Source of the DNA: Callorhinchus milii
Taxonomy: Eukaryota
Direction: 5' to 3'
NCBI RefSeq assembly: GCF_018977255.1
Contig: NW_024704752.1
Location: 14,198,001 to 14,262,000 of the forward strand
Length of the DNA: 64,000 nucleotides
Part shown: positions 5,171-61,545 of the stretch, piece after piece
How the letters are laid out: each line of letters starts with the position of its first letter
How positions within the stretch are numbered: position 1 is the stretch's first letter
The notes under the pieces: model-generated
What the model saw: only the letters and a program-made list of their open reading frames with translations
The model's database searches: none
What the model was told of the DNA's origin: nothing
Made by a program: the position numbers and the translations under genes

Positions 5171-7577
5171 ATGTTTTATCACTCCAAGAAAACTCTCCAG
5201 ATCACAGTTCTTGTCGTCCTCTTTGCCATTGTCTTGGGGTCCGGTAACTCATGTAAGTTTTATTTTTGGAATAGTTTGTAATTTCAGTACATTTGATCAG
5301 CTTGTTTTACCCTAGGTGTGTGTAAAATTTTGATTTCTAGATCGACGCCCAACCAAGGTGACCACAAACTGCTGCAAGCAAGTCTCTGGGAGGCGAATCA
5401 TGTATAATGTTACACATTATACAATTCAGAATGGAATGCCTCCTTGTGTGGAAGCTGTAATGTAAGCAACACTTTCTAATTATTTTAAATCGAGCTGATT
5501 ACAATACTGTGAGTTCAAAGACCCATCGTGCGGCTTCAACCCACAAGCGACACAGAGGCTGAGCCAGGCTGATAAAATGGTTTTGTTCCAAATATGCTAC
5601 GTAACGTAGACATTAAGCTACGGTCTCAAAAACTGGAAAGTCCATGCTGTTTAAGCAACAGCCCATGACTAAGACTGTGATGTAATCACAATGCACTGTT
5701 TCAATAGTCACATTCACAGCTAACGTGTTCCCAGTTCCCAGCAGTGACAGGAATTCTTCCATGCATAAGAGAACATTATTTAAATTATACTCTTCATTCC
5801 CCTCCACCCCCCAACACAATAATCTAGTCCTGTGTTTGCATGTACAATAACACCAGATCAGGAGCAACAAGTATATTAAAACAAAATTCAATCTAAACGA
5901 ACTGTTAATAATTCTCCATTTAGCAAAATACTGTAGTAACAAAATTGCAATGTTGTGTTTTGACTACATCAAATTTAACAGAACACAGACATTTGTTTGG
6001 ATACACTTAAGCAAGGTGAAGGATTGTTGCGTATGTTAGAAACACGGCTGACCAAAAAGAAAGCAGAAACACAGAATTATTTGGCTAAATGACTGATCAG
6101 GAGCTGGTACACTTGTCTGTTATTGAAACTGAAAGATCTGAAGCTCCAAACATTATGCTTAATTCAATTTGAATTTGGTGATAATGGAAAAAAATAATAG
6201 TTTTTTTTCTTTAATTAAATTAAGATAAGTTTATTTTGTGGCAGGAAAGTCTTGTGCTCTCTTTGAAGGTGCTCAGTGAATTACTCAGGATGTGAAGGCA
6301 TCTGTAAATACTATTGGAGATTTAAAAGTGAAACTGCACAGTGAGGGAAATCAACACTGAATCTAAAACTGATACTTCTCCAAATAAAATAAGTGCGGTG
6401 TGTGTGGCACAATGCCATCAAAGTGGCATAAATCCTGTGCGAGTTGAAAAAGATCGGGTCTATACAAAAGAAGTTGCTCAGGGGTTTGAAATGTTTTGAT
6501 CTGAGTCATTTCCTAATGGGAAGTTGACCAGAATCCGGGTTACCCAGAGTGGAATATGGCTAATGAGCTGGACCGCTTTGGCTTTTGACTCCTAATAGCA
6601 AGATCAGAGGGTCATGTAGAAATAAGCCTCAGGGTTCACCAATCCTCCTGGTATTAGGTTGTGGACAGACTGGGATAATATAGAAAAAAATAAAGCGATC
6701 TTATCTCAAAAGTGTCCAATTTTTCCAAATTGCATAACTGCTGCTTTCAGTGTAAATTACTGTTTACTAATCTACGGAGTAATGTTTCACAGGCAGTAAG
6801 TTCTCTCCACTTTTACAAGGTGTTCAGATAATGTTGACTTCACAAAAAAAATCAGCGTGAAAGTGTTTTACTGTTACTATTCATTGTTACATGCACTTCT
6901 TCACTCAGAAACAAATAAATGACTTGAACAGGTTGCCAGGAAGGATGGTTGCAGCTAGGACTTTTGTCTTGTTTAAAAGTCTGCTCGATGCTGTGATGGG
7001 AGGAGAGTATTCTGGAGGGATGAGATCTAATGGTCTACAGGGTCCTCTTCATCCGAACCAATTTGGTGAACCCGTGTTCTAAAATATAATTTGAACCCCT
7101 TTTGTCTCAAATAAAAATATACACCGCTTGTTCCTCATCTACTTTAGATTCTACACATCGGAGATAGGAGCCATTTGTTCCAATCCTACTCTACTCTGGG
7201 TGGCGAGAAAGATCAAAATGATTGAGTAAGTCAAATGTAATATGGCAAGGATTTTATCTTGATCATTTATTGCTTCAGTCACTCTCATGTTTATTCTTGG
7301 CCTTTCTATCTGTTTCATTTGTAATTGCTTGAATTGCTTGTAATTGCTTTCTGTGTTCAAAGTAATAATAATAATTCTTGCATCTGATATAGCGCCTTAT
7401 TGTCTCAGTATTTCAACTATTCATACCATTAAATTACCTAATTCACATGAATATGTTCATTTTTGTTTCTAAACAATACTATTAGTGTATTGATCACTAA
7501 ACATCATTTTCTTTTTTATTTCATTCAGAAACAAGATAGCAGCTGCCCGAGGGAATGACAGAGCGATTGCAGATTGA
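5171..7577 (+). CDS. CC chemokine, CCL34-like (gene A), 4 exons: 5171-5252, 5341-5461, 7148-7225, 7529-7577; 109 aa
   Basis: Manual splicing with GT..AG introns gives an open frame: MFYHSKKTLQITVLVVLFAIVLGSGNS-YRRPTKVTTNCCKQVSGRRIMYNVTHYTIQNGMPPCVEAVI-FYTSEIGAICSNPTLLWVARKIKMIE-NKIAAARGNDRAIAD*. It has a signal peptide, CC motif, third Cys, and a C-x-x-P...WV motif. The subfamily call is from recalled similarity to teleost CCL34 and needs a phylogeny. Confidence 0.92.
6895..7070 (+). mobile_element. Old CR1-like 3' end fragment in intron 2 of gene A
   Basis: Encodes NRLPGRMVAARTFVLFKSLLDAVM (CR1 ORF2 C-terminus-like); homologous inverted copy at about 51225-51390. Confidence 0.6.
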
Positions 7578-8761
7578 AAGGATTTTTCAGCTTATGTTTT
7601 TTCAGCTAATTCTTTTACATTTTCCTTGCAATATTAAAGTTTAAAATCTGTTAAACCTTCAATTACTAGATATTCAAGCTTTCTTTGTCATATTCTACAC
7701 GCCGTATTCAAAGTAATAATAATAGTCCTTGCATTTGATATAGAGCCTTATCATGTTGTTGAGACATCGCAAAGTGCTTCACAGTATACATGCAAAGTAC
7801 AGTTGCAGTAATGTAAAATTAAAAAAGTCTAGTTACTCTAATGCTTATCTCCCCCCCCTCTTGATCATTTGTTGCCTCAGTCTCTCTTTTGTTTGGCACT
7901 TTTTAATCTAGGATTCTGAGAATTTGACTAATCTGCCCAGTGGAATTCAGAGAAATCCATATCAAGTGCAAACACCACTGACTTTTTTTTCTCCTGTTGA
8001 TGTAGACTCAGAGGTTTTATTAAAGGATTCAAATGAAGAAAAAAAGAACGTGTGTATGTCATGATATTTTACCCCTATGCTTTGCAAATGACAACAACCA
8101 ACAACTTGCATTTATATAGCGCCCCGCACGCAGACAGCGAACCAGGGGGTAGGGGGAAGTGACTGTAGGCACAGTCGAATATCATTGTATACAATAATCA
8201 TTAAATATAGTTGCATTGTCAACATGGTTCCGTTATTTTCTATTTTATACCTGACATTGGCCTGGTTAACTGGCCTGATGAGAGGTATACTAAATGGGGA
8301 ATTCAAAACTACAAGACCTTTTCCATATTCTGTAGTGAATATCTGCCTGCACTCACTGTCGAAGCTCAGACACGAAGAATGATCATCTGGGGCTGCCAGC
8401 AGCCACTGAACCACACTCCAATATGATTCGATGCGTTCAGGGCAGGAAGGACGAAAATCAGGAGGAATGGAGAAAGGAGAAAAAGATGCAGCTGAGAAGC
8501 AATGTGGCCCATGTTGGCATCATTTCCTTCTCATAAGTTTTCTTTCTGCGAAGGATGAATAAGATTCTTCAACAACAACATCAAAAGACAAACCAGAACA
8601 GAGAGAGATCTAAGTCTAACTAATTTAATAGTACTTGCTGGTGAAAATTCAATGCCAATTTGAAGAGGGAAGTTTGAGCTCCAGTGAATATTAAGAATGA
8701 ATATAAAATTAATGTCAAATAAGACCGATTTTAACTTGACTCTTTCAAGAAGTTCCTTTGT

Positions 8762-9081
8762 GGAGTCCTGTAGCTCAGTGGTTAGAGCACTCGCTTTGCA
8801 AGTGAGAGACCTGAGTTCAATTCCAGGCAGAGGGCGAAACCTTGGGCAAGTTTCCTCACTCCACACACCTAATAATAATCCTTCCAAAAAACCAAAAACA
8901 ATAATAAAATTGGTCATTTTCAATCTACGACTGTCTGTGGGACATTGCTGTGCGCAATTGGCAGCCGCGTTCGCCCACAACTATACAGTCAATTCACTTT
9001 ACAGTGTGTTCTGTGAAGCGCTTTGGGACGTCCTCCCGACGTGAAAAGCGCTATATCAAATGCAAGGATTATTATTATTAT
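8762..9081 (+). mobile_element. Young tRNA(Ala-like)-derived Deu-type SINE with L2 tail, full length
   Basis: Head GGAGTCCTGTAGCTCAGTGGTTAGAGC (A box)..TTTGCAA..GAGTTCAATTCC (B box); core TGTGGGACATTGCTGTGCGCAATTGGC; L2-like tail and (ATT)n. Confidence 0.9.
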
Positions 9082-11142
9082 TTGTTATGCACTTAATGTT
9101 GTCATTTTGGCCCACAGAGGATCCTTATCCTCCTATGAAGGTAAATAATTTCCTAAATGGGCTCATACATAGTGCATTTTCTTGTAAGCAGCATCACAGC
9201 CTAAGGCTGTCACCCAAAAATATTTAGATGTAAGTTTTCGCAGTAAGATGTAGGCAGGTGGAAAAGGATCTTTTTGGTCAGCAGGTGAAACCCATCACCA
9301 TGCTTAAGAGTATCCAAACCAAACTGAGAGCTCCATGGACACATGGAATCCCAGAGATACTTGTTGCATGGTGGTAATGCTCTCACACATTTCAGGCTGA
9401 GCTGGGTTTCCCAATAGGAAGCTCACAGGGTGTTCTGGTACCTACTATCCACCTTGTGAGGGCTCAGACCTGTGCTTGCCGGATGTCAAATGAGCAGGTT
9501 CACACATTATGTTGTTATCAATATTACGTTATCTAATTCTCTTTCATGGTGTGTGTGGTTGTGAATCTTCAGTCTCTTTTTCTCTTGTGCTGCAAGCAGA
9601 GACATCCTCTCGATGTGAAATATGCTATGTAAATACAATTTGTTGACCTTCTTCAGGAGAGACATGGAAACAATTTAAATTTAAATCTAGCCGTCGCTTC
9701 AAAAATGTTGAGTTTCTAAACATGGTGCTGTGAAAGCAGGGTTTTCTCATAAATTAATGGCTGTATCTACTCATAGAATAGTAAATGGCTTATGCTGTAA
9801 AAAAGTACAAATTTACTCTTGCTGACCTACACTTATTGAGCTGTTCACGTTTGAGTGCATCATTGTTACCAAGGTGGTAAGAGCTTGAGTCAAGGGTCGT
9901 TGGAAACAAGAACAGATGTGGTGAGAAGCTGTTGCATTGCAGTGGAACTATATGTTGCAGGCTCACATAGTTATAGATTTTAGTAATTCAGCAAATCTAG
10001 AAGATCCAGTCTGCAATAAGTGTGAGACAGCGGGTTGAAAAATGTTATGTTTCACAACAGCTTTGACGTAACAGTTACCTCATTGAATCCTTCATGAAAT
10101 GATGAGGCTTTTCACCCCAATTATTCAATAATAATAATAATAATCGCTGCATTTGATATGAGGAAAGAGAAACTGGGGATATTGTCCTGGAATTAGATAT
10201 CGACAGAAAGGGTTGAGAAAAGATCTGAAAGAAGTTTCAAAATTATGAATGGGTTTGATAAAGTAAACAGTGAGAAATGATTTGCACTCGTCAGTGAATC
10301 AGCAACTAGGGGTGTCGCTTTAAGTTAATTGCTAAAACAATTTGGAACAATTTAAAACAGCAAAGAAAGTTAAGATTTATTTTTACAGAAAGATTCATAT
10401 GTTTCACAGCCCCAACATATAAGGCTCTTTATATGTTCAGACTATATAAAATATATGGATTATTATAATAATAGTAATAATAATCCTTGCATTTGATACG
10501 CAAGGCACCTTATCATGTCTTCGAGACGTCTCAAAGCACTTCACAGAATGTACTGTAAAATGTAGTGACTATGTATTTTGTGGGAGAAATTATATTACAG
10601 TTTAAATTACTCTGTAGAGGTAGTTTCTAAGTAGTATTCAGTGGTGGGTCAGCCAGACCAATAACACTGCCATGTTACATATGAATGGATGTTGCTTTTC
10701 TTAGTATGTTTGATCTTCCTAAAATAGCTGCAGGAGATTGATATTTTGTTCTCCAAGTATTTTGTTAAGCCATTAAAGCAAGTCTTATTAACAGTCCCAG
10801 GTGCACCGATGATCATATGTTTGTTTTATACTGCCACATGCGTCCTCATTCAATTTGTAGATCGATATATTTCTTCAACTAGTTCCTTATTACTTACGTT
10901 GCAATCACTTGGGATAGCCACACTAATAATACTACATGAACAATCTATTTATATTATTATTAGAGGGAAAAGGCAGAGGAATAGGATTTAATCGATAGCT
11001 CCTCCAGAGAGAGAGAGAGAGAGAGCACAGGCGTGATGGCCAAATAAATGGCTTCTATCTTTACTGTAAATCTCTAGGGTTTTATCAAGCTAACTATTTG
11101 TGCATCACAAGATTTCACTCTCCTGGAGATCCTGTCAAATTT

Positions 11143-12105
11143 AACATAACATAACATGTAGGAGCAGGAGTAGGCCATTCAGCCCTTCGAGCCTGCCCCA
11201 CCATTCAATCATGGCTGATCTTCTAATCTAACTCCAGCTAATAACCTAACCCTGCCTTATCCCCATATCCCTTAATCCCTTTTGCAATAAGAAATATATC
11301 GATCTCAGTCTTGAACAGCCCTTTGGGGTAGCGAGTTCCATACATTCACCACCCATTGAGTGAAGAAGCTCTTCCTCAACTCAGTGCGAAAGGGCCGGCC
11401 TCTGATTTTAAGGTTGTGACCCCTGGTTTTAGTTTCTCCAACCGGGGGAAACAATCTCCCACTATCTACTCTATCATGTCTTTTGATAATCTTATAGGTT
11501 TCTATAAGATCCCCTCTAATTCTTCTATATTGGAGAGAATATAGGCCCAAATTGGTCAGCCTATCCTCATAACTCATCCCCTTCAACCCTGGTACTAACC
11601 TAGTAAATCTACACTGCACCCCCTCCAAGGGAAGTACATCCTTTCTTAAATAAGGAGACCAAAACTGCACACAGTACTCCAGGTGTGGTCTCACCAGGAT
11701 CCTATACAGTTGCAGCAAGATTTCTCTACTCTTATACTCTAATCCTTTCATAATGAACGTTAACATACCGTTCGCTTTCCTAATTGCTCGCTGCACCTGC
11801 AGACTAACTTTCTGTGATTGGTGTACAAGGACACCCAAGTCCCTCTGGACGCTAACACATTCCAATCTCTCCCCTTCTAAAAAATAACCCGCTCTACTGT
11901 TTTTCCTACCTAGGTGGATGACTTCGCACTTCCCTACATTATACTTCATCTGCCACCTACCTGCCCAATCACCTAAGCTATCTATGTTGCGCTGCATTTT
12001 TTAAATGTCATTCTCTGTGTTGACACTTCCTCCTAGTTTTGTGTCATCCGCAAATTTAGATATGTTAACTTCGATGTCCTCATCTAGAAAGTTGACGTAG
12101 ATGGT
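11143..12105 (-). mobile_element. CR1 LINE, 5'-truncated (RT C-terminal part plus 3'UTR)
   Basis: ORF 11305-11997 contains WQMKYNVGKCEVIHLG, RDLGVLV, LYRILVRPHLEYCVQFWSP and TRGHNLK, typical of CR1 ORF2. Upstream minus strand reads ..SKFADDTKLGG. Tail is (ATGTT)n. Confidence 0.93.
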
Positions 12106-12432: not shown

Positions 12433-12433
<1 letters not shown>

Positions 12434-14230: not shown

Positions 14231-14551
14231 ATAATAATAATAATAATAATAATAATCCTTGCATTTGATATAGCGCTTTTCACGTCGGGAGGATGTCCCA
14301 AAGCGCTTCACAGAAGACACTGTAAAGTGAATTGACTGTATATTTGTGGGCGAACGCGGCAGCCAATTGCGCACAGCAATGTCCCACAAACAGTCGTAGA
14401 TTGAAAATGACCAATTTTAATTATTGTTTTTGGTTTTTGGAGGGATTATTATTAGGCGTGTGGGTTTGCCCAAGGTTTCGCCCTGCCTGGAATTGAACTT
14501 AGGTCTCTCACTTGCAAAGCGAGTGCTCTAACCACTGAGCTACAGGACTCC
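14231..14551 (-). mobile_element. Young tRNA-derived SINE copy
   Basis: Reverse complement is nearly identical to 8762-9081, with a small internal deletion. Confidence 0.9.
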
Positions 14552-14923
14552 ACATAGCCTTTTGCTTGTCCTGATACCAATTAATGGGGGCAGCAAAATA
14601 TACCACATTAGGTGGAACAAGATAGTCAAGCCAAGACGACTTAAAATAATTAAGTACCTCTCCACAATCTCTTTGAAAAAGATCGGAAAGAGAAATGAGA
14701 TGTCACCTCAATGAGAATGAAAAAAAAATTCTCTTAAGTTTATTAAATGACCAAAAACTGTTTATACTGATATGGTGTGACACTGTCACTTCCTCCAGAC
14801 TCAAACAAAAATATCACTGTAACACCACCGACAAAAATAAACTCATGACCAGAAAAAGCCTGGACCTAAGGTTTGTTTCCTTTACATTGCTTCTACTGCT
14901 ATATTAGGTGTGGCTTGATTCTT

Positions 14924-14986: not shown

Positions 14987-16661
14987 ATGCAATGCCTGTT
15001 GGACAGAAGATTGACTCATATCGCTTTGCTTGTGATGGTCTTTGCTTTTATTACTGTCGTTGGCGGCAATTGTAAGTTTGATATGCTTTTGGCTTTTACA
15101 ATAGTTACTTTGCCAGATGTAGAACAAAAAAAATCTTAAAAATCAAGTTTCCAAAGTCTTTTACTGACTTCGGAAACAAGTGATGTGTAGAAAAGGATGT
15201 TTCACTAAACTACTTAAAAGACATTTTCACTGATAAGGAAGTGCTGTTGACTCTTTGCTTTAACAGATCTACGGCCAAGCTCAGTTACCACAAGCTGCTG
15301 CCGCTCTGTATCCTCGAAAAAGGTTCCTTTTACTATCACCCATTATAGGATCCAGAAGGCTCTGAAACCCTGTATCGCAGCTGTCATGTAAGTAAGCTGT
15401 CTTTAAACATATTGTTTATGCCACCAGGTCAATTCAGAGATAAGAATGTTGGGTCTCAGAACACGAAAGCACCATTTTCTCATCAAAATAGAAGATTCCT
15501 TTCATATAGTCACATGCAAGTAGTGTCATGGGACCTTTGATGTCCACTTGAACAAGCACATGGGGCCTCAGTTTAATGTCTTGTTCAAAGGCTTAACAGA
15601 AACTGAGTGGAAAGAATCCTGCTCCTTAGTAACTGGTCAACTGCGTGTGGAGTACTGTCAATCTGCCTGGCTCAGGAAACAGACAGCCAAGACCACCACA
15701 AAGGATCAAGTCAATTCTGATCTTCCATTGCCAACCATATCACCTTAGAACCAACTCAGCCCCAGAGAGGCTCTGTTTTCTTCTCCCCACCCCTGCCCTC
15801 TCCACATTCCCCCACAGTAGGATAGAAGAAAATAGATCAATGACAATGAATGACAAAGTTGTATTTCAATCAAGTTATCATTAAAGTAATAACGAAAATA
15901 TCATGGGAAATCTTGATAGCCTTAAGAATAAGGGGATCAATTTTTTTTAACTGTTACCCTACAAGAGGCATTGACACTGTATATGTCAGGCACCAAGACA
16001 CCATCATTGGGACTCTGAGTGACCTTCGAGCGTGCAGTATAAATGGGACTCAACCCGCTCTAGACACCACCTGCTACAAGCAAAGGCACTTTCAGTCCAA
16101 CAGGATTAAAGAAGATAATAATAACAATGCTTTATTTTATGTTTAGATTCTACACCAAAGAGAAGGGGGCAATTTGTGCTCATCCAAAAGCATATTGGGT
16201 GAGAAAGAAGATAAGAGAAATAAAGTAAGTAAGGCACGCAATGCGATATTGTCCGATGGCCTTTCTAATACTCTTTATACTGTGCATTTGGTGCAAACGC
16301 TGGGCCAAGATTCTTGGTATACTAAAGCTACTAGTGAGGGCTGATCATATGAGCAACTGAGAGAAGCTCTTTGTGTTTTTCTTTGCCACACTAACAGTGT
16401 AATTGCCACTGACATAATGCTTGCTTTTTAACTTGCAACTCATACTTCAGTCCAACAGGATTAAAGAACGCAGATGTCTAGTCAATGTGAAGCCATCAAC
16501 TAACAAAGCTGATCAAGTACTAGACTGCATCGCGAGAATATTATTCTAACCTTGCATGGATCTCAGGCCATTCTGAGGTTTGTTAACTGCAATTTTGTGT
16601 CTAAAGCCTCTTCCTTTACCTAAACAGTTCCCCTGCTCATCATGCCAAAAAGATCAAGTAA
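14987..16661 (+). CDS. CC chemokine, CCL34-like (gene B), 4 exons: 14987-15071, 15267-15387, 16147-16224, 16628-16661; 105 aa
   Basis: MQCLLDRRLTHIALLVMVFAFITVVGGN-YLRPSSVTTSCCRSVSSKKVPFTITHYRIQKALKPCIAAVI-FYTKEKGAICAHPKAYWVRKKIREIN-SPAHHAKKIK*. All three donors are GTAAGT. Exon 2 and 3 sizes (121/78) are identical to gene A. TATAA at 14924. Exon 4 is the least certain. Confidence 0.92.
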
Positions 16662-20508: not shown

Positions 20509-20564
<56 letters not shown>

Positions 20565-28156: not shown

Positions 28157-28241
28157 GACGATCTCAAACAGCAGTGAAATTAGTTTGATGCTCAGTCTGA
28201 TAATCTCCTAACAAGTAATGCTTTCAACACTGGTCAGCAAG

Positions 28242-42870: not shown

Positions 42871-42950
42871 ACACACATATCAATGCTCAAAATCACACAA
42901 CTCCTCAGCTAAAGATTGAGAATCATTCCTGGAGAGAAAAAAGTGATACA

Positions 42951-44650
42951 ATGACTGCTCTGAGGAACCTCGCAGTGTCTCTTTTGCTCTCACTGATGAT
43001 GCTGAACATGCTCAATAGCCCAGTAACAGCATGTAAGTCTCAATCTGTTATATTCTGTTCTCAGTTATTCCGTTCATTTTTGTGAAGCATTATGTTGAAT
43101 TCTATAATGTGTGCACCTGTTCATTGTATTTACTGTAGATTTTTTTTTTCGATTGCAGCTTCCATTGTAGATTGCTGTCTTGGTTACATAAAAGGGAGGG
43201 TACCAATGAAACATATCGCTGGCTATGTGGAACAAAATTCCAATGAAATGTGTGACATTGATGCCATTATGTAAGTGCAAATTTGTACATTTGTATAAGC
43301 GCCTTTCACATCAGTAAGACATCATCTCACAGAGCTGACTGTGTACAATATAGTACAGTACAAGACTCTGAGACATCAGACAGAGCGACTGGAAAATAAT
43401 TACTTTAATAATATAATAATAATACTTGCATTTGGTATAGCGCCCAATCATGTTTTCGAGATGTTTTCACAGAATATACTGTAAAGTGAATTGACTGTAT
43501 ATGTTGTGGGCGATGTATATTGTATATTTGTGGGTGATGTTCTTTCGATAACTTATTTAAACATTGTTTCACAGACTCCAGACTTTTGGAGGACTGCAAT
43601 ACTGCACCAATCCCAAACGCACCTGGGTGAAAATTGTATTGAGACGGCTGAGGTAAACTCCAAATTCTGCCACATATTGTAAAATTGCTGTTAAGATATG
43701 CAGGATAATGGAGCAGCTTTTGATTTAAAAATTTTAAGCTTAGAAAGTCGCAATTAGTTAAAACTTATCTTATAAGAATTTCATTTTTTACACAGTTCAA
43801 AATTGATTCAAATGTTTCTAAATTCTGCATCAATATTTTACATGCCTTTTCATGCTAAGAAAGAAAGGTACTGTGATGACTTGCAGAAACTGCAGCTTAT
43901 AGCGGAAAGGAACATTTTTCTTACACTCATCTGTAGAATAACCGTTAAAAATCTATCAGGTAAAAACATAAGCCTTCTGGGGAAGGTTAGAAAAGTTCTG
44001 TCATTCTAAATGGCACAAATCGTTGAAGAAAACAGCTTCTGCTGAATGATTCCTGGGTTAAGTCCAGCACATGAAAGAGTTTGAGACAAACTAGAATTAG
44101 CAGTGCACCAAATAAATAGCACTGGATGAGCAACAGAACTTGTTTGTACATAGGAGATGAACAGCATACATAGGAACATCGAAATTAGGAGCAGGAGTAG
44201 GCCATTTGGCCCCTCGAGCCTGCCCCGCCATTCAATAAGATCATGGTTGATCTTCTAACCTATCTTCTCATTCCATCTGCCCACCTTATCCCCATATCCC
44301 TTAGTCCCTCTAACATTTAGTTGTCGATCAAATTCCTCTTCATCCAAAACTTGCTCTTTCCAGGGCTTCCTCGCCTTGATGTTGTGAAACTTTTTTTTAA
44401 CGTTCTAATGCAGACAAATGTCTAACTCTTAGCAAAAGTTATTTATAAAAAAGAAACAGATTTAAAGTCATCATATTTAACTTTAAATGTGACCGCAAGT
44501 AACTGCGAGAGAATGTTTGTGAAGGTTTAGAATACTATCAAATTAAAAGTTTTGCTTTTTGCAAGTTGAGATGATTTTAAGCTTACCCATTCTTTTTTTT
44601 TCTTTTTGTTTTACAGCAAAAGACTGAAGGAAATGTCGAATCAGAGCTAA
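42951..44650 (+). CDS. CCL20: CC chemokine, CCL20-like (gene D), 4 exons: 42951-43032, 43159-43270, 43575-43652, 44617-44650; 101 aa
   Basis: MTALRNLAVSLLLSLMMLNMLNSPVTA-SSIVDCCLGYIKGRVPMKHIAGYVEQNSNEMCDIDAII-LQTFGGLQYCTNPKRTWVKIVLRRLS-KRLKEMSNQS*. DCCLGY and the C-terminal LSKRLKEM are CCL20-like. AATAAA at 44899. Confidence 0.93.
44168..44312 (-). mobile_element. CR1 3'UTR fragment in intron 3 of gene D
   Basis: TAGGAGCAGGAGTAGGCCATT..CGAGCCTGCCCC is shared with 11159-11280. Confidence 0.8.
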
Positions 44651-45999: not shown

Positions 46000-46863
46000 A
46001 TGACTGCTCTCAGCAGCCTCAAGGTGCCTGTTTGGCTCTCACTCTTGGTGCTGACCATGCTCAACAGCCAGTGTCAGCATGTAAGTCTTAATCAGTTGAT
46101 CACTTAGTTCCGTATTATTTAGACCTCATACTAATCCACTTGAAACAATAAAGCAGCAGCTTCAAAATGTTTAACATACATTTTCCATTGCAGCACTGCG
46201 AGGAGATAGCTGTCTCAACTACGCAAAGAGGAAGTTGCCATTTAGATTAAACGCTGGCTATGTGATACAATAGTCCAATTATATCTGCGACACAGATGCA
46301 ATCGCGTAAGCCCGAGCACACAGTTACGTTATATCTTTGCAAATATTTATGCTGCAAGTGCAATGCAAACATTGCCCTTTCTGATGTTTGTGTCTGTGGC
46401 TGTAACTGAGAAAAAATAGAAAAAAATATGCAGCAGGTCTGTGATCGTTCTTTATTCACTTTTGTTATAAGTCAAATTAGTGTCTGTATGCAATCAGATT
46501 GTTTCACTGCCTTGTTTGACTTATTGCCTCCAGAGGCAGTCCTCAGGCTCATCAATTTCAATCACAGTGCAACCTTTTTATAGAGGGATATTGTCCACCT
46601 GAACAAAATAGACTTGTTTTTTTATTAGCATTATCACATTTCCAGATTTAATGTCGGTAGCAATTTGGGCTGTACATGTAACATGTTGTAGAAGAGATTA
46701 TCCATAAATTATTCAGAACAACTGGAAAGTCATTAGTTTTGATAATGTTCCTTTAAATTAGGAAATCCATATCAATGTTTCTTCAGATTCGTGCAGTTAA
46801 AGGAAATGAAATATGTGCAAATCCTAAGGCCAAATGGGTGAAAAGAAGACTGAAATACCCCTG
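46000..46863 (+). pseudogene. CCL20-like pseudogene (psi-E): exon remnants 46000-46080, 46194-46305, 46787-46863
   Basis: Exon 1 is homologous to gene D but 81 nt instead of 82 (frameshift). Exon 2 reads LRGDSCLNYAKRKLPFRLNAGYVIQ*SNYICDTDAI, with first Cys->Ser and a TAG at 46271-46273. Exon 3 (..AVKGNEICANPKAKWVKRRLKY) is 77 nt instead of 78. Exon 4 was not confidently found. Confidence 0.88.
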
Positions 46864-46949
46864 GTAAGTGCATTCATTGGTGTCACCATTAAACCATAGA
46901 AATAGAGTATGTGAATGGAAGAATAAGTCAATGGGTTTGAGTTTTCAGC

Positions 46950-52500: not shown

Positions 52501-52930
52501 CCTTTAAAATGAGGCCCTGTCTGACTGTTCAGGTAAAGATCCCATGATATAAATGCCCGTTTCAATGCAGTGTTAAAGTGCTAAATCAATTGCAAGGATT
52601 ATTATAATTATTTTTTTTTTACAGACACCACACTTCAGCATTCACTTTAATAAAGCGCCTTATATTATCACTGCAGAAACATGTGTTCTGTTTTTCTTCT
52701 TCCTTAGCAGAGATGTAGCACGTAGCAGAGGAGAGTGCCCTCGTTAAATTAAATCTCCCGCACGATAGAATGAGTTAGACATGTATGTGGTAAATTGACA
52801 GTGTAATGCAAATTCATTTAAATCTCTACTCTATAAATAACAAAGGTCCAACATTATTTTATTCATCTGAGCAATCACCAATGACTCTGTAGCAAAGAAT
52901 AGGCGATTCCGTAAAGAAAACCTGGGTTAC

Positions 52931-53644
52931 TGTGGTTAGCTTTTTAAACTGGTTCTTTCACTTGATAATCAGATAAAATGAAAGGTTATTAATAAGAGAG
53001 ACATCAGGGCATGCAAACCGGGTAACCCACAAGCGCACCCAAAACTGTGAATAAATACGTGTGTAACCATGTAAATGTACAAGATGTAAACATCCCAAAG
53101 ATCCCAAAGATGTATGTATGTCTGCCTGCCCCCTCCCATAAAAGGAGGAGTGGCAGGGAGTGAGGTAAAAGCTCACCGTCCCGTAAAATGACGGCAGAGA
53201 AGGGGCTGGCCCGCCTGTGTAACTGCTCCCTGTAGAAAAGGGGAACAGAACCCCGGCAGGAATGCCACGGTACAGGTGGGACTGGCCAGGTATATAGCGT
53301 ATGTGTATGTGCTTGTCAGGTCTCCGGGTGTGTGTTTGGGTAAACGTGTACGTACATCGGGACGCCGTCCGAAAGCGGCAAGTGCGGCTTATCAGGGCGT
53401 ACACAAGGATGTAGTGCACACAGGGGCGATTCCCGACTGTCTTAAAGGAAGCATCCCAAAGAAATGTGTGCACATCCCATAGGATGTGAACCATAGATTG
53501 CTGTGAACCTGCCCACACTCCCCACTAAGAGGGGATGGATAAGGAGGGGTGTACAAGGCCCCATTTGTAACTGCACCCGGCAAAGGGAGTGCGCAGAGGC
53601 AACTTCCCAACACCCCCCACCCCCCCACGTTTGTCATAGTAACA
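52931..53644. mobile_element. Possible solo LTR (about 714 bp) nested in an unclassified repeat
   Basis: GC/CpG-richer block beginning TGT and ending ACA, with flanks GTTAC/GTTAA. Both flanks align with a contiguous stretch of the 38636-38900 repeat. Confidence 0.45.
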
Positions 53645-55801
53645 GTTAATAGCAGTGCTGGTCCAGTTCCTGAGCCAAGAGGATCTGTAGTAAACCAAGG
53701 CACTGCTCGTGACAGACCAGCCAGCCTGGCTCAACAGCAGGACTTGGACAGGAAGACCAGTCATTAGGGATAGGGATTCTTCCCACTCGGCTCCTATTGA
53801 CTCTACGAACCCAGAGGTAGCCTGAATAGGTAGGGTGATCCTAATTGGACTCACAGTGGGAAGCTGCCAGACAGTGCAAAACAGTTTTAGCAGGTAAATT
53901 CCAGTAGTATTCAAAATACACAATCTCAGGTCCCAAGCCTGATTCTCATCAACCTGTTTCTAACGCTGTCCAGAATTAGGTGAGCAGAGTGCGTCCCTCA
54001 AGGGAGAGAGTGTACATTGCATTCGAAACACAGGTAAATTTCCATGGCTATACATACATATGTGGTACTCTCAGTCTGGTCGAGATACTCTTAAACATGG
54101 TGATAGATTTTCACAAATGTCACACACCCAGCTGACCAAAAAGAAACCAGCACAGATTGTATTGCGCTATCGTGCCTCCGCACGACATGTAAGGTGCAAT
54201 ATAAATGTAAATTGTATAATGTTCAGAAGCCTCCCTTAGGCTATTCCAAAGAAATACAACATTTTTCAGTACAGTATTTAAGAAGACTGAAGCCTTGCCA
54301 CACCAATAAATTATATTTGTAGAGCGCCTTTCACACCGGGAGGATGTCCCAAGGTGCTGCACAGTCAGGGTTTGGAGTGGAGCAGGGGGTTGGGATCAGG
54401 AGGGGTGGATTTACGATAGCTCTGAATAACTTGGAACTTGAATTGGAACTTAAACATGAATTTTATCTCCAGTTCCCAGATCAAAGCTAATGGAAGAAAA
54501 CAATAATTTCCCTGTGAGTACTCTATAGGGTATTGCAGTCAGTACACACAATCAAATTAGTGTTTTGTGTGTTTTAAGCTGATATTACAGTGCTCTACAA
54601 AATTATTTATTATTGGTTTCACCTGCAGGCAAAATAACTTTTGCAAATTCTATGTTATTACAACTTTCACCAAAGCCTTTGTTTTGAGTTTCTCTGGGGA
54701 AGAGAGATTGAGACACAAACAGGATAGCAAAGCTTTGGTTAAATGATTAAAATTCAACGGAAATCTTCTGATAATACAAACATCATTATCTTTATCATGA
54801 CATTGTATTCAGGCTACTTGCTTACTGCCCAAATACATCATGTGGGAGGAGAAAGAGAGGCGGCAGAGGGTAGATAAATGGTCAAATATCACAAGAAACA
54901 ATGTTACTTGAATCAACCAAAATCTACTAATAATTAGTTTTTTTTTAAGAAAGAGTCCATTAAGGGAGTTTCTCCTGGTGTCCTGGTCAATAAAATTGGC
55001 CCAAATAAAAGTGGCCTGAATAAAACTGGTCATTCATTCATTTCATGGCTGTTTGTAGTAAGTTGCTGTGTGCTATTGAGCTACCTACAAATACACAGTC
55101 ACTGCCCTCAATAAATCCTGTGATGTGCCTTGAGACATCCTCTCGATATGAGAAGTGCTATGAAAGGAATTATTAATAACCTTGAGGGACTTGCCCAGTT
55201 TGGAACAGTGAGTCCCATTTCTATTTGGGCTGCCTAACTCACCCCATCCCCACCCCCTCCTCCGATGAGGAACTAAGGTATAGTTTCAGAGGTGCCAACC
55301 CATCAATAGTGGGTATGTACCACCTCCTCGGTGCTGCTGGGGTGAGAAGAAAATTAGCCACAGCTCCAACTCTTGAAACCTATTCAAAGGCTGGAAAGTA
55401 CATAAGTGTGAACTTTGGATGAGGGCAAGGTGGGGTTTATCTGTGATCTGCAAAGGACATGAAGGTATCAATGAAATCATGCATGAGAAAAGTCATTTGG
55501 AGAAAATACTGGTGGGTGACCAATACCTGCGAAACAAACCCACATCAGCAAAAAATGAGGTGGTTGAAGATGCCAAGGAAATGGATGGTCGCCACTGTGA
55601 AAATAGGTGACTGACTGCAGGATGGAGATAATCAATTGTGGTAAACCATTTGTGTAATAACATCAAATTGCAGTGCAAATTCAGCAAAAATTATCGAAGA
55701 GGAAACTGGTCGCTGAGGTTCCTCCTCCTGAATATATCTACATTATATTAGAACTTCCATGATGCACTGCAACGCTAAAATGTGCTTAATTACCTTGAGT
55801 G

Positions 55802-55809
55802 TATATAAA
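55802..55809 (+). promoter_or_regulatory. TATA box of gene F
   Basis: TATATAAA 94 bp upstream of the ATG. Confidence 0.6.
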
Positions 55810-55895
55810 CCCGTCAGAAGACTCAACACATCTCAACCAAAGATCCACGGATCATTTCTGTACTGAAGAGATCACTGAAAGCAATCTGAGATACA

Positions 55896-57141
55896 ATGAC
55901 TGCCACCAGGAACCTTGCCATTATGGCTGCTTTGATCTCACTGTTTGCATTTAACATGTCAGCATGTAAGTTTTACTTTGTCACACAGGTTTCTCTATTA
56001 TTTAACCTTTAATAAAAACACACAAATAATAATGATTTGTTGATTTAAATGATTTGTAAAATACTTGTTCTCTGTTTCAGTTGCCGCAAAAGTAGACTGC
56101 TGTATCGGTCATTCGAGCAGACCGGTGCCAGTTGGAGCTATCACTGGCTATGTGCATCAAGAATCCAATGAAATGTGTGATATAGATGCCATCATGTAAG
56201 TAAAAGGAACGGACAAGTAATTTAGTGGCAAATACTTAATGCAGTATAATACTTGAATTTGATGTAGAATCCTATCATGTTGATAAACATTTAATTAAAT
56301 TAGTTACTCTCTGAAGTAATTAATCAATTAATTAATTAATTAATTGTGTGCTTCGCCCACAAAATACACAGTCAATTCACTTTACAGTATATTCTGTGAA
56401 GCGCATTGAGACGTCTCGAAGACATGATACGGTGCTATATCAAATGCAAGCATTATTAATAATTATATGACTTTTGTTAGATAGGCAGCATTATCATCAT
56501 ATGTTGTTTTGGGGGGGAGTTTGGACAAGAGCTAAGGAGAGTTTGCTTTCAGTCACAATGCTTTAAATGTCTGAATAGATCTCCCAACATTGCAACACCG
56601 TTGTTTGGGCTGATAGCCTAGATTTTGGTGTGGGTCTCAAACTCATTGCCTCTGACTGAGAATTGAAAGTGTTGCCAACTGAATCAAGCTCGTAGTTTTG
56701 AGATCCATGCCTTTAGACAGATAGAACAGTGAGCAAGAAATTAATACAGGTAACAAGAGGAGAGACTATGTAAAAAGATTAGAAAATCATAGCAAGGAGC
56801 TTGTATTTATAGCTGTAACTGTACTTATCCATAAATCATTCCGAAAGAGAGAAAAAACCTAATTAGTTTTTGATCATGCTCATTTAATTGACAAATCTAT
56901 TTTAATACTCCTACACAGATTCTACACTGTCAAACGACGAGAAATATGTGCAAACCCAAATGCTGGTTGGGTGAAACGAAACTTGAAAAATTTGAGGTAA
57001 TTGTTTTTTTTAATAAGAGATACTCACCTGTTTGCTCTCTGTAGAAATCTTTCTTTATAACAAGGCTGAGTGACTTGAAGTTTATTGTACTTCCTTTTAT
57101 GTTGCAGCAAAAGATTGGAACAAATGTCTCAAAAATATTGA
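55896..57141 (+). CDS. CCL20: CC chemokine, CCL20-like (gene F), 4 exons: 55896-55965, 56081-56195, 56919-56996, 57108-57141; 98 aa
   Basis: MTATRNLAIMAALISLFAFNMSA-FAAKVDCCIGHSSRPVPVGAITGYVHQESNEMCDIDAII-FYTVKRREICANPNAGWVKRNLKNLS-KRLEQMSQKY*. TATATAAA at 55802 and AATAAA at 57365. Confidence 0.93.
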
Positions 57142-58607
57142 GCTTCACCTCAACAAATTAAAGCAGCTGGATTTGTTTTGCTTTAGAAAAGCTTCCCTGC
57201 ATAGCATCTTCGTGTCGTTGTAGCTTATTAAGAACAAAGCACGTTTGCATTGGTAGTATTTGCTGAGTAAGCTGTTTAGTTTAATGATCCATTGGATATG
57301 AATATGAAATTTAAACACAATGTAATGTATACAATGTGAAGTGTGACATATTCTGGGGTCTATGAATAAATGAGAAAATCATTTGCATTATCTCTTCAGT
57401 GGTGTGATTTTATTCATTTTCATGGGGCTGACTTTGTGGAAAGAATATGTAAACCAGAGATGGTTTCTGTGTCAAGTCATCATTTATGGAACTTAATAGC
57501 AATTCTTGGGGCTGCCGTTTGGAGGACAGTACAGCCTTGTTATAGATAAATAAAAATGATAGATACATGATTAATATCATTATTCTAGACACAAACAATG
57601 AAAAATGTTTGTCCTAAAGTGCGCTGCCATTTGAATTGTTTGAGAAGTAAGGCGAGGAAGAGGAGCCGGATAACAACACCGGATAATAACTGAAAGGCTG
57701 ATAAAGATTCTCTTTCAACTCAGAAAGCAGCCAGCAATTTTAGAATGGTACAATGAATATTCAGCTTAATTTGACGCTGTGGTATAATGGTGACACAAAT
57801 GACCCAACTGTGACCCACGTCTCCATGCAAATATGGCATCAATCAAATCACCAAGCTATCTTGCTTAGACGATAGTCCACTGATTGTCAGAGAATGCTGT
57901 ATTGTCAGAGATGCATCAGATGAGGTCTCGTTTATCAGTAGACATTAAACGTCCTGCACCACCATTCGAAAAGAGAAGGGAGTTTCTCCCGGTGTCCAGG
58001 GAAGCAATCCTCTAGATAAATTGATGATTCATTTCATGGCTCTTTGTGGGACACTGTTGTATGTAACTTGGCTGGTGCATTCACCCACAAAGTATGTCTT
58101 TACAAAACTTCTGTGATGCAATTTGAGATATAAAGGGCGTTATCAAATGCAAAGATACGTCATTGATGAGCCAGCAGATTGCTCAGGCATCAACAAGATC
58201 TTGGATTACAGTAGATATTTGTCACACACGCATTCTTGAATGCCAAATAAATAAAAGATAAGACAAGAGAGATTGAAAGACATCTCTGGATTTCCGTTTT
58301 CGCACTCTCTGAGGTCAAATATTTTGTACATCATTTGTAACCTAGGTTTGTAAAGGATTTGTAATATTTTCGATCGTGTGTTTGAGTAATTGTGTGTGGG
58401 TACCACTAACTGGCAAGAACTCTACTCCATACATCCAAGAGAGGAGTTCCAGCAAGACATACATCCAGTTGCCACTAGGATTCAATATTTACAAATACTT
58501 TGCAGATGCAGTTTGTAAACACTGTATTTTAGACCCCCACCCACTGTGAGCATGCTCCTATTACACATACATTACAAGTTTCTGCACATAAACATATAGA
58601 GCAATGC

Positions 58608-58970
58608 TAATAATAATTCTTGTGTTTTATATAGCATCTTATCACATGTTCGAGACTTCTCAAAGTGCTTAACAGAATATACTGTAAAGTGAATTGACTG
58701 TATATTTTGTCGGCCAAACGCTACAGCCAATATCGCACAGCAGTGTCCCACAAACAGTCATGGATTGAATGACTAAGTTTTCTTTAAGGGATTATTACAC
58801 CCAGAAAAGCGATCCGCCAATCGACTAACAACCAAGTTCCTACTTACTACTAGATAAACAGAGGTGGATGGAGTAAGGAAGGTTTGCCCAAGGTTTCACC
58901 CTGCCCGAGAATCAAATCCAGGTCCTCTCGCTTGCGAGGCGAGTGTTCTAACTAATATGCCATAGGACAC
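58608..58970 (-). mobile_element. Older, longer subfamily copy of the tRNA SINE
   Basis: Diverged head plus an extra internal segment (CCTACTTACTACTAGATAAACAG; CCAATCGACTAACAAC) also seen inverted at about 16980-17220. Confidence 0.75.
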
Positions 58971-60699
58971 GATTATGCAACTAAAAGCTGTGGTTTTGGT
59001 CCAGAGTGCAACTCTTTGCCTGGACTCCCAGTTCCGTCTTGTGTGTTTTAAATATTTGACTATGGACTTTTCTTGTATTGTCAGTAGCTAACCTTTAGAC
59101 TGCAGTCAGGTTTACGGAATCTCTCATCTCAATGAGGAGACTAGTTCTCTAAAGTTTCAACTCAGATATTATCATGCTCCAGTTGAGATCACCTAACTCA
59201 ACAAACAGAATATAATGTTTATCTTTGCCATTTCTAAGCAACCCACACCTTTGACTGTGGAATTCAATTGCTGTGTAAACTAAGAGTTCAGTTTGAAACG
59301 ACTAAAATAAAGTGTGATTTGAAGAATGATTCAATCTAAAGAGTATGTTGGAGTCCTTGCTTTTGTAAGCTACTTCATTCATTCTTTATCAGAAACATTG
59401 GAGTCCAAACTGGACTCATTCCATTGTGCTGAATTAGAATGAACTATTTTCAAACAATAAAGCAATATGGTACTAGACAGTGATAAACAACAACAACTTT
59501 CATTTTGAGTATAGTGCCCTTCACGAAGAATAAAAGCAAAGTGTAGGTAAATATTGCATTTACGGAGAAAAATTACATTCCTGTTCCAATCCAGGCTTTT
59601 TTTCTTTTGTCGCCACAAACATTACGCAAAGCAATAAATTGTAGCTGAGATTTAAAATTAAATTGGATCACATTAGCCACATTAAGAAGATAATTGTTAA
59701 GTGCTGAATGTAGCACTTGGTTCTGCTTATTCTCAAAGCAAATAGAGACAATCACCCAGCAGTACAAAACATCCAGCAACTGATGGATTATTTAAGTGGC
59801 AATATCTGCACTGACTGGATTCATGCTATACAGTCACGCATCTCCCCAATGCATAGCCTGTGTCCATTTACCTCCTTCAACATCCATGACCTTCAATCTA
59901 TAATACATGAACTCTTAACAAAAATCTGACCACAATAGATATTCTTAGGTCTCATTGAGTATTAAATTGGCCACTATTTAAATACTTCCAGAAAAGTAAA
60001 CTAAAACATTCTATCGATTTGGAATTAAGCAACACAACTATTAATGTTAGGACCAGTCAATGTGGCTAAATCATTATTATATTGTGAAATAAATAAGTGT
60101 ATATCACGCTCAGTTACATCATAATAACAATAAAAATATCCTTGCATTTGATATAGCGCCATATCACGTCTCAAAGCTCTTCACAGAATCTACTGTAAAG
60201 TGAATTGACTATATATTTTGTAGGCAAAATCATGTACAAGGCTCAGGAAGCGTTGCCTATGGTGACCTAACGACCTAGAAGTCAACTATTTTCCACACTT
60301 CGTTGTATCGCAGAATCTAGGAAATTGAATCCAGAACACCACATTATATCGGATTGCTCTTTATATTCCTTTCGTTTCTTCAGTTATTATAAGGATAAAT
60401 GTCCCTCTATTATTTCGATAGAATCTCCCTCAACAGTCCATATATTGCCAAGCAAATAAATTTAATTTATATCAATTATGCTTCATGCAAGGTTCTATTT
60501 TGAACTGTTGGCTCCCACACTATTTGTTAGAGCAAACCAAGGTAAAATATTATGGTGTTAGTTAAATTGCTAACATCGTAATTTGAAAGGAAAGACTGCC
60601 TAATCTTTGAATTGTGTAATTTCCATAAGAAAGGTACTGAATTTCAAGAATAGATACATAGCATAGATTGATAATAAATACTCTGAATTACCTGGAAAG

Positions 60700-61545
60700 T
60701 AAAATACCAGAGGAAAAAGGTCAGGGAGATTCCTCCTTTACCTTATGATCTTCTCTACGTTTTCTATGATGCGCTGAAATGTTGGAAATTCCCCGAACCT
60801 GTCAGGAAACTTAACATAACTCAGTTAAAGATCGAGGAACCATTTCTGTACTGAAGAGATGACTTAAAGCAATCAGAACCTTGTTTGCGTAACGTAAGCA
60901 TCAGGTTCAATCACCAGCTGCCCTCGCTACCCTCATCTGGTCCCGACCAGCACTGTTTTCTTTTACCTCGTCAAATTTCCCACCTGTACCTCACACCCAA
61001 CACAGTCGTAAACCTCATCCATGCTTCAGTCACTTCTCGTCTTGAATATTCCAATGCCCTCCCCAGCTCCACTATCCGCAAAATCCAAATAATTAAACTC
61101 TGCCATCTGTATACTAAACTCTGTTCCCCCGTGACACCAATTCTTCTCAGGCTCCACAAGCACCTGTAACACAGAACGGATTGACTTCAAGATCCTCACA
61201 CTCATCTACAAATTCCTTCACACCCTGGCACCTCCCTATTTCTCCAATCCACCACCCGCCACTCCACTTGCCCGGCTCTAGCTTCCTGCTTGTCCCTCGA
61301 TCCCTCCGCTCCACCATCGGCGGCCTGAAACTTTGGGGCTCCCTCCCTCAATCCTCCACTTTGCCCCTTCCTGCCCCTTATTCAGATTACTCTTCGACCA
61401 TGCTTATGATCACTAGCTGGATTCATGCCACAGTCACGTGTAAAATATATATAAGTATTTTGTCACAGGCTCCACACTATTAGAGGAAGTATGTGCAGAT
61501 CCTAGGATAAATTGGTGAAAAGAACATTGGAATTGTTGCAGCACA
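60700..61545 (+). pseudogene. Heavily decayed CCL20-like relic (psi-G): promoter/5'UTR plus exon 3 remnant
   Basis: 60841-60874 CATTTCTGTACTGAAGAGATGACTTAAAGCAATC matches the 5'UTR of gene F (55852-55886) and psi-E (45957-45990), but the ATG/exon 1 position is occupied by L2 sequence. The acceptor ..gtcacag at 61468 is followed by frameshifted LHTIRG/VCADPRINW/KRTLELL. Confidence 0.75.
60895..61380 (+). mobile_element. L2 ORF2 fragment inside psi-G
   Basis: NLIHASVTSRLEYSNAL and DFKILTLIYKFLHTLAP motifs. Confidence 0.8.

What the first reader, a model, noticed from the sequence alone, without database searches (positions are those of the whole stretch)
5171..61545. Hidden tandem cluster of seven CC-chemokine loci (5 intact, 2 pseudogenes) showing birth-and-death evolution
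Seen: seven co-oriented loci. The five intact genes share a 4-exon layout with phases 1/2/2, and none appears as a recognisable ORF in the track because the exons are 34-121 nt. Known: mammals have a single CCL20, the ligand of CCR6. Inference: this lineage expanded CCL20 to at least five copies (3 intact, 2 dead). Such small divergent genes are often missed or mis-modelled by annotation.
Basis: partly seen in the sequence, partly recalled or inferred. Interest (0 to 1): 0.8.

Follow-up and report, generated by a model that had tools for sequence, protein, structure and literature searches.

The report
Ancient chimaera chemokine gene cluster
This is a real but already annotated row of five intact and two broken immune-signal (chemokine) genes in the elephant shark; it likely preserves an old gene block also seen in frogs and zebrafish rather than a recent burst of copies, so it is fairly ordinary.

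Summary
There are seven co-oriented CC-chemokine loci on the + strand: five intact four-exon genes (A, B, C, D, F; intron phases 1/2/2; exons 34-121 nt), a full four-exon pseudogene (E) and a two-piece remnant (G). Spliced contigs bridge all three introns of D and of F.

It is not hidden. All five proteins match Callorhinchus milii database records letter for letter; only RefSeq's D model is 15 residues short. C, D and F are CCL20-type. A and B are SCYA107-type, likely CCL34.

The claimed lineage-specific CCL20 expansion is only partly right. C pairs with ray genes and D/E/F with shark genes, and one clade of C+D+F is rejected (AU p 0.002-0.018). A, B and a flanking gene each pair with a different shark gene. 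Only D/E/F/G may be chimaera-specific copies. Multiple CCL20 genes are already reported in frog, zebrafish and platypus.

The window is part of an 11-locus block: EPHA4 - three 3-exon CC genes - three CCL34-type - five CCL20-type - PPP2R3A. This matches the frog and zebrafish XCL/CCL32-CCL34-CCL20 clusters. Verdict: a new member of a known kind, low interest. The best lead is the three flanking four-cysteine genes in the XCL position.

The parts
5171..7577 (+). Gene A, intact SCYA107-type (likely CCL34-group) CC chemokine, 109 aa; exons 5171-5252, 5341-5461, 7148-7225, 7529-7577
   Evidence: Model; identical to P0044 (K4FRR7/AFK10648.1), 1 change from NP_001279442.1; Pfam IL8 37.3 bits for its cluster representative P0018; groups with shark SCYA107 99/86
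14987..16661 (+). Gene B, intact SCYA107/CCL34-type CC chemokine, 105 aa; exons 14987-15071, 15267-15387, 16147-16224, 16628-16661; alternative last exon 16451-16481
   Evidence: identical to P0020 = XP_007885532.2 'eotaxin isoform X1'; isoform X2 tail located; IL8 47.0 bits
28218..29540 (+). Gene C, intact CCL20-type chemokine of the old 'C-type' lineage, 116 aa; exons 28218-28335, 28460-28577, 28807-28887, 29507-29540
   Evidence: identical to P0021 (A0A4W3IZ75), 1 change from NP_001279562.1; best PDB hit CCL20, 75.7 bits; groups with ray genes 98/94
42951..44650 (+). Gene D, intact CCL20-type chemokine, 101 aa; exons 42951-43032, 43159-43270, 43575-43652, 44617-44650
   Evidence: identical to P0022 (A0A4W3IZ79); RefSeq XP_007885552.1 starts at Met16; one contig of run X3 spans all three introns; best PDB hit CCL20, 66.6 bits
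46000..50056 (+). Pseudogene E, D/F-type CCL20 copy; exons 46000-46080 (1-nt deletion), 46194-46305 (first Cys is Ser; TAG at 46271-46273), 46787-46863 (one base short), 50023-50056; intron 3 carries retroelement-like fragments
   Evidence: (exon 1 region 131/162 identical to D; exon-4 hit E 2.4e-7); exon 3 alone scores IL8 27.9 bits
55896..57141 (+). Gene F, intact CCL20-type chemokine, 98 aa; exons 55896-55965, 56081-56195, 56919-56996, 57108-57141
   Evidence: identical to P0004 (V9LFA9), 1 change from NP_001279587.1; contigs of runs X1 and X2 together span all three introns; best PDB hit CCL20, 68.2 bits
60762..60877 (+). Remnant G, part 1: promoter/5' leader of a D/E/F-type gene, ending before the start codon
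   Evidence: 91/116 identical to the F leader; nhmmer E 6.9e-12; shuffle maximum 8.1 bits
61456..61545 (+). Remnant G, part 2: decayed exon 3 with acceptor AG at 61467-61468, indels and no donor; coding exon 1, exon 2 and exon 4 not found
   Evidence: nhmmer E 4.9e-9; 40/48 identical to E exon 3; sequence

Best explanation
The window holds two SCYA107-type (likely CCL34-group) and three CCL20-type chemokine genes plus two broken CCL20-type copies, which are likely the right-hand part of an ancient jawed-vertebrate chemokine block rather than a fresh expansion. Shown: gene structures, splicing of D and F, family assignment, lesions, and flanking EPHA4-like and PPP2R3A genes. Inferred history: the block (three-exon XCL/CCL32-position genes, then CCL34-type, then CCL20-type) existed before chimaeras split from sharks and rays. 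At that point it already held three CCL34-type paralogues (A, B, Z) and at least two CCL20 lineages (C-type and D-type). Tandem duplication, probably by unequal crossing-over, then made D/E/F/G, possibly only in the chimaera line. E died by point lesions and G by deletion. Inferred function: each intact gene makes a secreted, basic, two-disulphide chemokine. C, D and F likely attract CCR6-bearing leukocytes, because they keep the Asp before CC and the Glu30 that contact CCR6 in the human complex; C has Arg in place of Asp33, so it would likely differ in affinity. The receptor of A and B is unknown.
For: Exon models and exact database matches. Pfam IL8 in 5 of 5. CCL20 is the top PDB hit for 3 of 3 of C/D/F. 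Spliced contigs for D in 4 of 4 runs and for F in 2 of 4 runs, from 2 studies. Trees: C with Hemitrygon/Hypanus/Mobula genes (98/94, 99/94); D/E/F inside a 15-row shark/ray group (95/86); Z with one Heptranchias gene (100/98), A with SCYA107 and a second, B with a third (85/86). AU rejects C+D+F(+E) (p 0.0016, 0.0017, 0.018), A+B+Z (0.0004, 0.0043) and A+B (0.010), but not D+E+F (0.50). Flanks: EPHA4 is the best PDB hit on the left, PPP2R3A on the right. Xenopus has xcl1, xcl2, ccl34a, ccl34b, ccl20a, ccl20b next to ppp2r3a (PMC8811506). Zebrafish chr2 has EPHA4B, minus-strand 3-exon CCL32/XCL32, plus-strand 4-exon CCL34, then CCL20. D against F gives dN 0.42, dS 1.0. CCL20 D5, E30 and D33 contacts come from PMC7295996 passages.
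Against: Trees rest on about 100 columns and deep branches are open. B pairs with its shark partner at only 85/86 and not at all. In the mixture tree D and F do not form a clade, so the age of the D/F split is unresolved. No named CCL34, CCL32 or living XCL sequence was in the trees, so those labels rest on gene order, strand and exon number. Zebrafish CCL20ab is listed as minus strand with 3 exons, unlike the shark CCL20-type genes. No receptor binding was tested.
Confidence: 0.82

Rival explanations
1. One reading: one ancestral CCL20 was expanded to five copies within this lineage.
For: Five CCL20-type loci lie in tandem. D, E, F and G share a 5' leader at about 80% identity, and one clade of D+E+F is not rejected (p 0.50). 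The 2013 survey counted only one CCL20 in this species.
Against: C is 52% identical to a ray gene but 38% to D and F. One clade of C+D+F is rejected under both models. Heptranchias and Pristiophorus each have two D-type genes.
Confidence: 0.08
2. All of D, E, F (and G) are also old: each corresponds to a separate shark paralogue, and the chimaera line contributed only the two deaths.
For: D-F synonymous distance is near saturation (dS about 1.0). Sharks have two D-type paralogues. The mixture tree puts D nearer the shark group than F (83/85).
Against: The shark paralogues group with each other apart from D/E/F (81/89; 94/82). The non-coding leaders of D/E/F/G still align. A D+E+F clade fits as well as the free tree.
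Confidence: 0.25
3. A and B are what their database names say, orthologues of mammalian eotaxin/CCL24 (CCR3 ligands).
For: NCBI names are 'eotaxin' and 'CCL24-like'. Eotaxin is the best living PDB hit for A (24.7 bits).
Against: The hit is weak and barely above CCL8 and CCL20 (about 20 bits). The locus is EPHA4-PPP2R3A, not the TMEM132E or HIP1/POR neighbourhoods of CCL11 and CCL24. A and B form a 100/100 group with shark, sturgeon, bichir and lungfish proteins. No CCR1/3 was recorded in this species.
Confidence: 0.05

Closest known systems
Xenopus xcl1-xcl2-ccl34a-ccl34b-ccl20a-ccl20b cluster next to ppp2r3a (PMC8811506; section 10 read)
   Same: A mixed cluster with several CCL34 and several CCL20 genes, with PPP2R3A at the CCL20 end.
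   Different: The shark block has 3+3+5 loci, two of them dead, and the genes in the XCL position keep four cysteines (CC).
Zebrafish chr2 EPHA4 - CCL32/XCL32 - CCL34 - CCL20 cluster (PMC3568907 Fig. S3 text; PMC2416438 table passage)
   Same: EPHA4 neighbour; minus-strand 3-exon genes followed by plus-strand 4-exon genes and then CCL20; tandem growth.
   Different: Zebrafish has far more copies (CCL34G 21, CCL32G 11, CCL20G 5), and its CCL20ab is listed as minus strand with 3 exons.
Mammalian CCL20 (MIP-3alpha), ligand of CCR6 (PDB 1M8A, 1HA6; PMC7295996 passages)
   Same: Best solved-structure match of C, D and F; Asp before CC, Glu30 and the I(N/D)AI motif are kept.
   Different: Single copy between SLC19A3 and DAW1/WDR69 in placental mammals; shark C has Arg at the Asp33 position.
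Shark SCYA107 (Scyliorhinus canicula Q802H0; P0024)
   Same: 58% identical to A and 55% to B; A groups with it 99/86.
   Different: It is one of three old paralogues; B and Z pair with other shark genes.

Membership tests
CC chemokines (Pfam IL8 PF00048) | Adjacent CC plus two further Cys, domain above cut-off | tested here: met
   5 of 5 intact proteins, 37-73 bits; E has lost the first Cys
CC chemokines (Pfam IL8 PF00048) | N-terminal signal peptide | tested here: inconclusive
   Exon 1 of each gene encodes a hydrophobic stretch by eye; no signal-peptide predictor was run
CCL20 group (C, D, F) | Closest sequence relative is CCL20, not CCL19/21/25 | tested here: met
   Top PDB hit is CCL20 for 3 of 3, by 25-34 bits over CCL19/21; trees place them among CCL20-named proteins, apart from CCL19-like outgroups
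CCL20 group (C, D, F) | Asp directly before CC and Glu30 (CCR6 contacts) | tested here: met
   DCC and Glu30 in 3 of 3 (alignments; contacts from PMC7295996)
CCL20 group (C, D, F) | Asp33 (salt bridge to CCR6 R286) | tested here: inconclusive
   Kept in D and F, Arg in C, Ser in ray C-type proteins
CCL20 group (C, D, F) | Very short mature N terminus (5 residues before CC) | tested here: inconclusive
   Likely cut sites read by eye give 5 (C), 5 (D) and 4-6 (F) residues (print-out); no predictor was run
CCL20 group (C, D, F) | Synteny with EPHA4/PPP2R3A as in frog and fish | tested here: met
CCL20 group (C, D, F) | Binds and activates CCR6 | not testable with these tools
   Needs a receptor assay
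CCL34 group (A, B) | Position between XCL/CCL32 and CCL20 genes, plus strand, 4 exons | tested here: met
CCL34 group (A, B) | Groups with named frog/fish CCL34 proteins | not tested
   No sequence named CCL34 was returned by the searches; A/B form a 100/100 group with SCYA107 and sturgeon, bichir and lungfish proteins
XCL (lymphotactin) group, flanking genes X1-X3 | Only two cysteines (XC motif) | tested here: not met
   All three keep four cysteines
XCL (lymphotactin) group, flanking genes X1-X3 | Sequence closest to XCL1 | tested here: inconclusive
   Best PDB hit is the reconstructed XCL1 ancestor 7JH1 (52.1 bits), but C/D/F hit it at 47-61 bits too; living CCL17 (42.8) beats living lymphotactin (31.4)
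Birth-and-death multigene family | Tandem paralogues of different ages, some retained, some pseudogenised, no homogenisation | tested here: met
   Paralogues 22-54% identical, several pairing with other species' genes; two pseudogenes

The most novel reading that the evidence does not exclude
The elephant-shark block is the least rearranged living copy of the ancestral XCL-CCL34-CCL20 locus. The three minus-strand, three-exon genes just left of the window (X1-X3, with relatives in rays) are four-cysteine pro-orthologues of lymphotactin XCL1 and the missing ligands of the three shark XCR1-type receptors. They would be natural, living stand-ins for the reconstructed pre-fold-switching XCL1 ancestor.
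Probability: 0.35. Interest if true: 0.55.

Novelty: new member of a known kind. Interest (0 to 1): 0.25.

Why it matters
Modest. The genes are on record and CCL20/CCL34 clusters are known from frog and zebrafish. What this adds is placement. The 2013 survey listed one CCL20 and no CCL34, CCL32 or XCL member for elephant shark; the assembled locus shows the whole block in a cartilaginous fish, which dates it, and several of its paralogues, to early jawed vertebrates. It also suggests that the database names (eotaxin, CCL24-like, CCL17-like) are misleading. Three CCL20-type ligands facing one recorded CCR6 make ligand specialisation testable, with C's Asp33-to-Arg change as the first candidate. 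If the flanking genes are four-cysteine XCL pro-orthologues, they give natural material for asking how XCL1 lost a disulphide and gained fold switching.

Tried and rejected
Expression of E and G: no spliced piece over either was listed, but the piece table was cut (40,981 rows not shown) and the runs are contigs, so this is no evidence. The look-up of sequencing runs listed no holder on record as RNA; the four runs laid are marked 'RNA?'. Contig depth was swamped by repeat matches and was not used.

More remnants: DNA profiles of exons 1-4 (CCL20-type) and exons 2-3 (A/B-type) over 264 kb found no further significant locus; the hit at 53428-53481 has E 0.99. Protein search of the whole genome with C gave 8 matches, 6 in this cluster and 2 weak ones at the CCL19-like loci on C1, so no separate CCL20 locus was seen (lower bound).

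The XCL1-ancestor hit was rejected as specific evidence for X1-X3, because C, D and F match it as well and the quick tree puts it on the CCL20 side. The Atlas gave only generic IL8 clusters for X2 and nothing for the 723-aa PPP2R3A-like exon; that gene was identified from downstream exons instead. Pfam gave 0 of 7 hits for the retroelement-like frames, so their class names are recalled only.

The 129-row bootstrap tree timed out and was replaced by a quick tree and three smaller careful trees of 28, 39 and 44 rows picked from the stored proteins. Multi-domain and fragmentary rows were left out. The 'Cys spacing' line was miscomputed and is not used. My first exon-1 guess for X1 was wrong and was corrected.

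Literature: 8 searches found no paper describing this cluster in a cartilaginous fish; most subscription journals are not held. The paper on the XCL1 ancestor (PMC8017559) was not held and is known here only through a review passage (PMC11751857). No structure or complex prediction was run, as it would only echo the solved CCL20-CCR6 structure. Earlier scan notes showed nothing nearby.
Full report
Observation. A six-frame motif scan and reading of the sequence gave seven chemokine-like loci, all on the + strand. Splice models give five intact genes: A 5171-7577 (109 aa), B 14987-16661 (105 aa), C 28218-29540 (116 aa), D 42951-44650 (101 aa) and F 55896-57141 (98 aa). None of the exons appears among the 41 frames of 100 aa or more. 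All 5 pass the Pfam IL8 cut-off.

Pseudogenes. E (46000-50056) is a complete four-exon copy. It has a 1-nt deletion in exon 1, Ser in place of the first Cys, a TAG at 46271-46273 and an exon 3 one base short. Its exon 4 was found at 50023-50056 behind a 3159-nt intron. The intron's broken frames look to me like a Penelope-type retroelement (recalled; Pfam gave 0 of 7 hits). G keeps a 5' leader (60762-60877, 91/116 identical to F's) and a decayed exon 3 (61456-61545). They score 42.9 and 34.3 bits against a shuffle maximum of 8.1. Its start codon, exon 2 and exon 4 were not found. E's exon 2 differs from D (dN 0.33, dS 0.68) about as D differs from F (0.29, 0.72, 33-34 codons). I infer, weakly, that E worked for much of its history.

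Not hidden. Protein searches returned Callorhinchus milii records on a 20,284,933-base contig, the length of contig C11 on which the window lies. Exact matches are A = K4FRR7, B = XP_007885532.2, C = A0A4W3IZ75, D = A0A4W3IZ79 and F = V9LFA9. A, C and F also have NP_ records (that these rest on transcripts is recalled). One mis-model exists: RefSeq XP_007885552.1 for D begins at Met16. Reads were laid on 42800-61800 only (4 runs, 2 studies, marked 'RNA?'). One contig of run X3 spans all three introns of D, and the other three runs each span one.

Family assignment. Against solved structures, CCL20 is the top hit for C (75.7 bits), D (66.6) and F (68.2); the best CCL19/21 scores are 42.0, 32.7 and 40.9. 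A matches everything weakly (best living hit eotaxin, 24.7 bits). A and B instead belong to a 100/100 group with shark SCYA107 and sturgeon, bichir and lungfish proteins. I call this group CCL34 from gene order; no sequence named CCL34 was available.

Age of the copies. C is 52% identical to a stingray protein and 38% to D and F. It groups with Hemitrygon, Hypanus and Mobula proteins (98/94 and 99/94), while D/E/F lie in a shark/ray group (95/86). AU tests reject C+D+F as one clade (p 0.0016 under LG+G4, 0.018 under the mixture model) and C+D+E+F (0.0017), but not D+E+F (0.50). Of the other group, Z (flank) pairs with one Heptranchias gene (100/98), A with SCYA107 and a second, and B with a third (85/86, unresolved). 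A+B+Z is rejected (p 0.0004, 0.0043). So at least two CCL20 lineages and probably three CCL34-type lineages predate the chimaera-shark split; only D/E/F/G are candidates for lineage-specific birth. Limits: about 100 columns, open deep nodes, rows chosen from what the searches returned.

Surroundings. A genome-wide IL8 search showed more hits left of the window. Fetching 100 kb on each side gave three minus-strand three-exon CC genes (X1-X3, C11:14.157-14.173 Mb) and a plus-strand four-exon gene Z (14.194-14.196 Mb), all with database records. The left neighbour is an ephrin receptor whose best PDB hit is EPHA4. The right neighbour is PPP2R3A. The block thus has 11 loci over about 103 kb, 9 intact. 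Xenopus has xcl1, xcl2, ccl34a, ccl34b, ccl20a and ccl20b next to ppp2r3a (PMC8811506, section 10 and passages read). Zebrafish chr2 has EPHA4B, minus-strand three-exon CCL32/XCL32 genes, plus-strand four-exon CCL34 genes and CCL20 (PMC3568907, passages and supplements 6, 11, 12; PMC2416438, passages). Multi-copy CCL20 is on record for platypus (2), X. tropicalis (3), medaka (2), zebrafish (5) and Tetraodon (2).

How it likely works. Shown: intact frames, four cysteines, basic mature regions (pI 9.1-10.2), splicing of D and F. Inferred from established chemokine biology: secretion through a signal peptide in exon 1, a two-disulphide chemokine fold, glycosaminoglycan-held gradients and GPCR signalling. 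In the human complex, CCL20 D5, E30 and D33 contact CCR6 and the N terminus is five residues long (PMC7295996, passages). C, D and F keep D5 and E30, D and F keep D33, and C has Arg there. One CCR6 and three XCR1-type receptors were recorded in this species from the early draft genome. I put CCR6 agonism of C/D/F at about 75% and leave the receptor of A/B open. D against F gives dN/dS of about 0.4, consistent with purifying selection, though dS is near saturation.

Novelty. Eight literature searches found no description of this cluster in a cartilaginous fish. The 2013 survey had one CCL20 and no CCL34, CCL32 or XCL for the species. The genome paper's main text has no mention of chemokines. 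Its supplement lists three elephant-shark proteins as CCL17 orthologues expressed in gills and spleen (PMC3964593, term searches only); these may be X1-X3, which I could not check. PMC10792014 and PMC4690017 (passages only) did not discuss the locus in what I saw. The kind of system is known and the genes are annotated, so this is a new member of a known kind.

The boldest reading left open lies just outside the window. X1-X3 sit in the XCL/CCL32 position, keep four cysteines, have relatives in rays (95/96) and best match the reconstructed XCL1 ancestor. Against it, that ancestor matches C/D/F as well, and living CCL17 outscores living lymphotactin. I give it 0.35. Overall interest 0.25.

Noticed in passing
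G000:C11:14156958-14172667 (L006-L008), minus strand: Three intact three-exon CC chemokine genes (X1-X3; records named CCL17-like, lymphotactin-like, eotaxin-like, CCL20-like) that form their own clade (99/94), next to ray relatives; they sit in the XCL/CCL32 position.
   Followed up: partly
G000:C11:14193697-14196400 (L010), plus strand: Gene Z, a third SCYA107/CCL34-type gene just left of the window (NP_001279412.1), pairing with a Heptranchias gene at 100/98.
   Followed up: yes
L001:4226-4999 minus; L019:6378-8582, L041:1501-1578 plus: Flanking genes: an EPHA4-like receptor exon on the left and PPP2R3A on the right (the long first exon was named from recall, the EF-hand exons by Pfam and PDB).
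   Followed up: yes
window 16451-16481: Alternative last exon of B (RefSeq isoform X2); its start resembles a stretch near 16093-16115 in intron 2.
   Followed up: partly
protein P0049 (V9LH38): A database protein whose first 20 residues match X2 exon 1 and the rest X3, although X2 exon 1 lies downstream of X3; a chimeric record, a conversion or a hybrid allele.
   Followed up: no
window 42835-42844 and 42862: NF-kB-like GGGAATTTCC 27 bases before the TATA-like box of D; similar motifs at 60724 and 60784 before G; consensus matches only.
   Followed up: no
window 46950-49500 and 11305-12000, minus strand: Broken retroelement-like frames (Penelope-like in E intron 3, CR1-like between A and B; class names recalled, no Pfam hit).
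   Followed up: partly
window 8756-9082, 14242-14557, 20550-20871, 25758-26089, 30897-31217 and many shorter copies: A roughly 330-bp interspersed repeat, five near-full copies 91-96% alike, with an AAT/ATT tail (SINE-like; name recalled).
   Followed up: no
G000 C1, C7, C13, C14, C21, C1102 (L021-L034): Other chemokine loci: CXC clusters on C1 and C7, two CCL19-like genes at C1:138.1 Mb, a CCL25-like gene on C21, and a CC gene at the end of C14 repeated twice on small contig C1102 (labels by resemblance, recalled).
   Followed up: partly
window 21688: A single N in the assembly between B and C.
   Followed up: no
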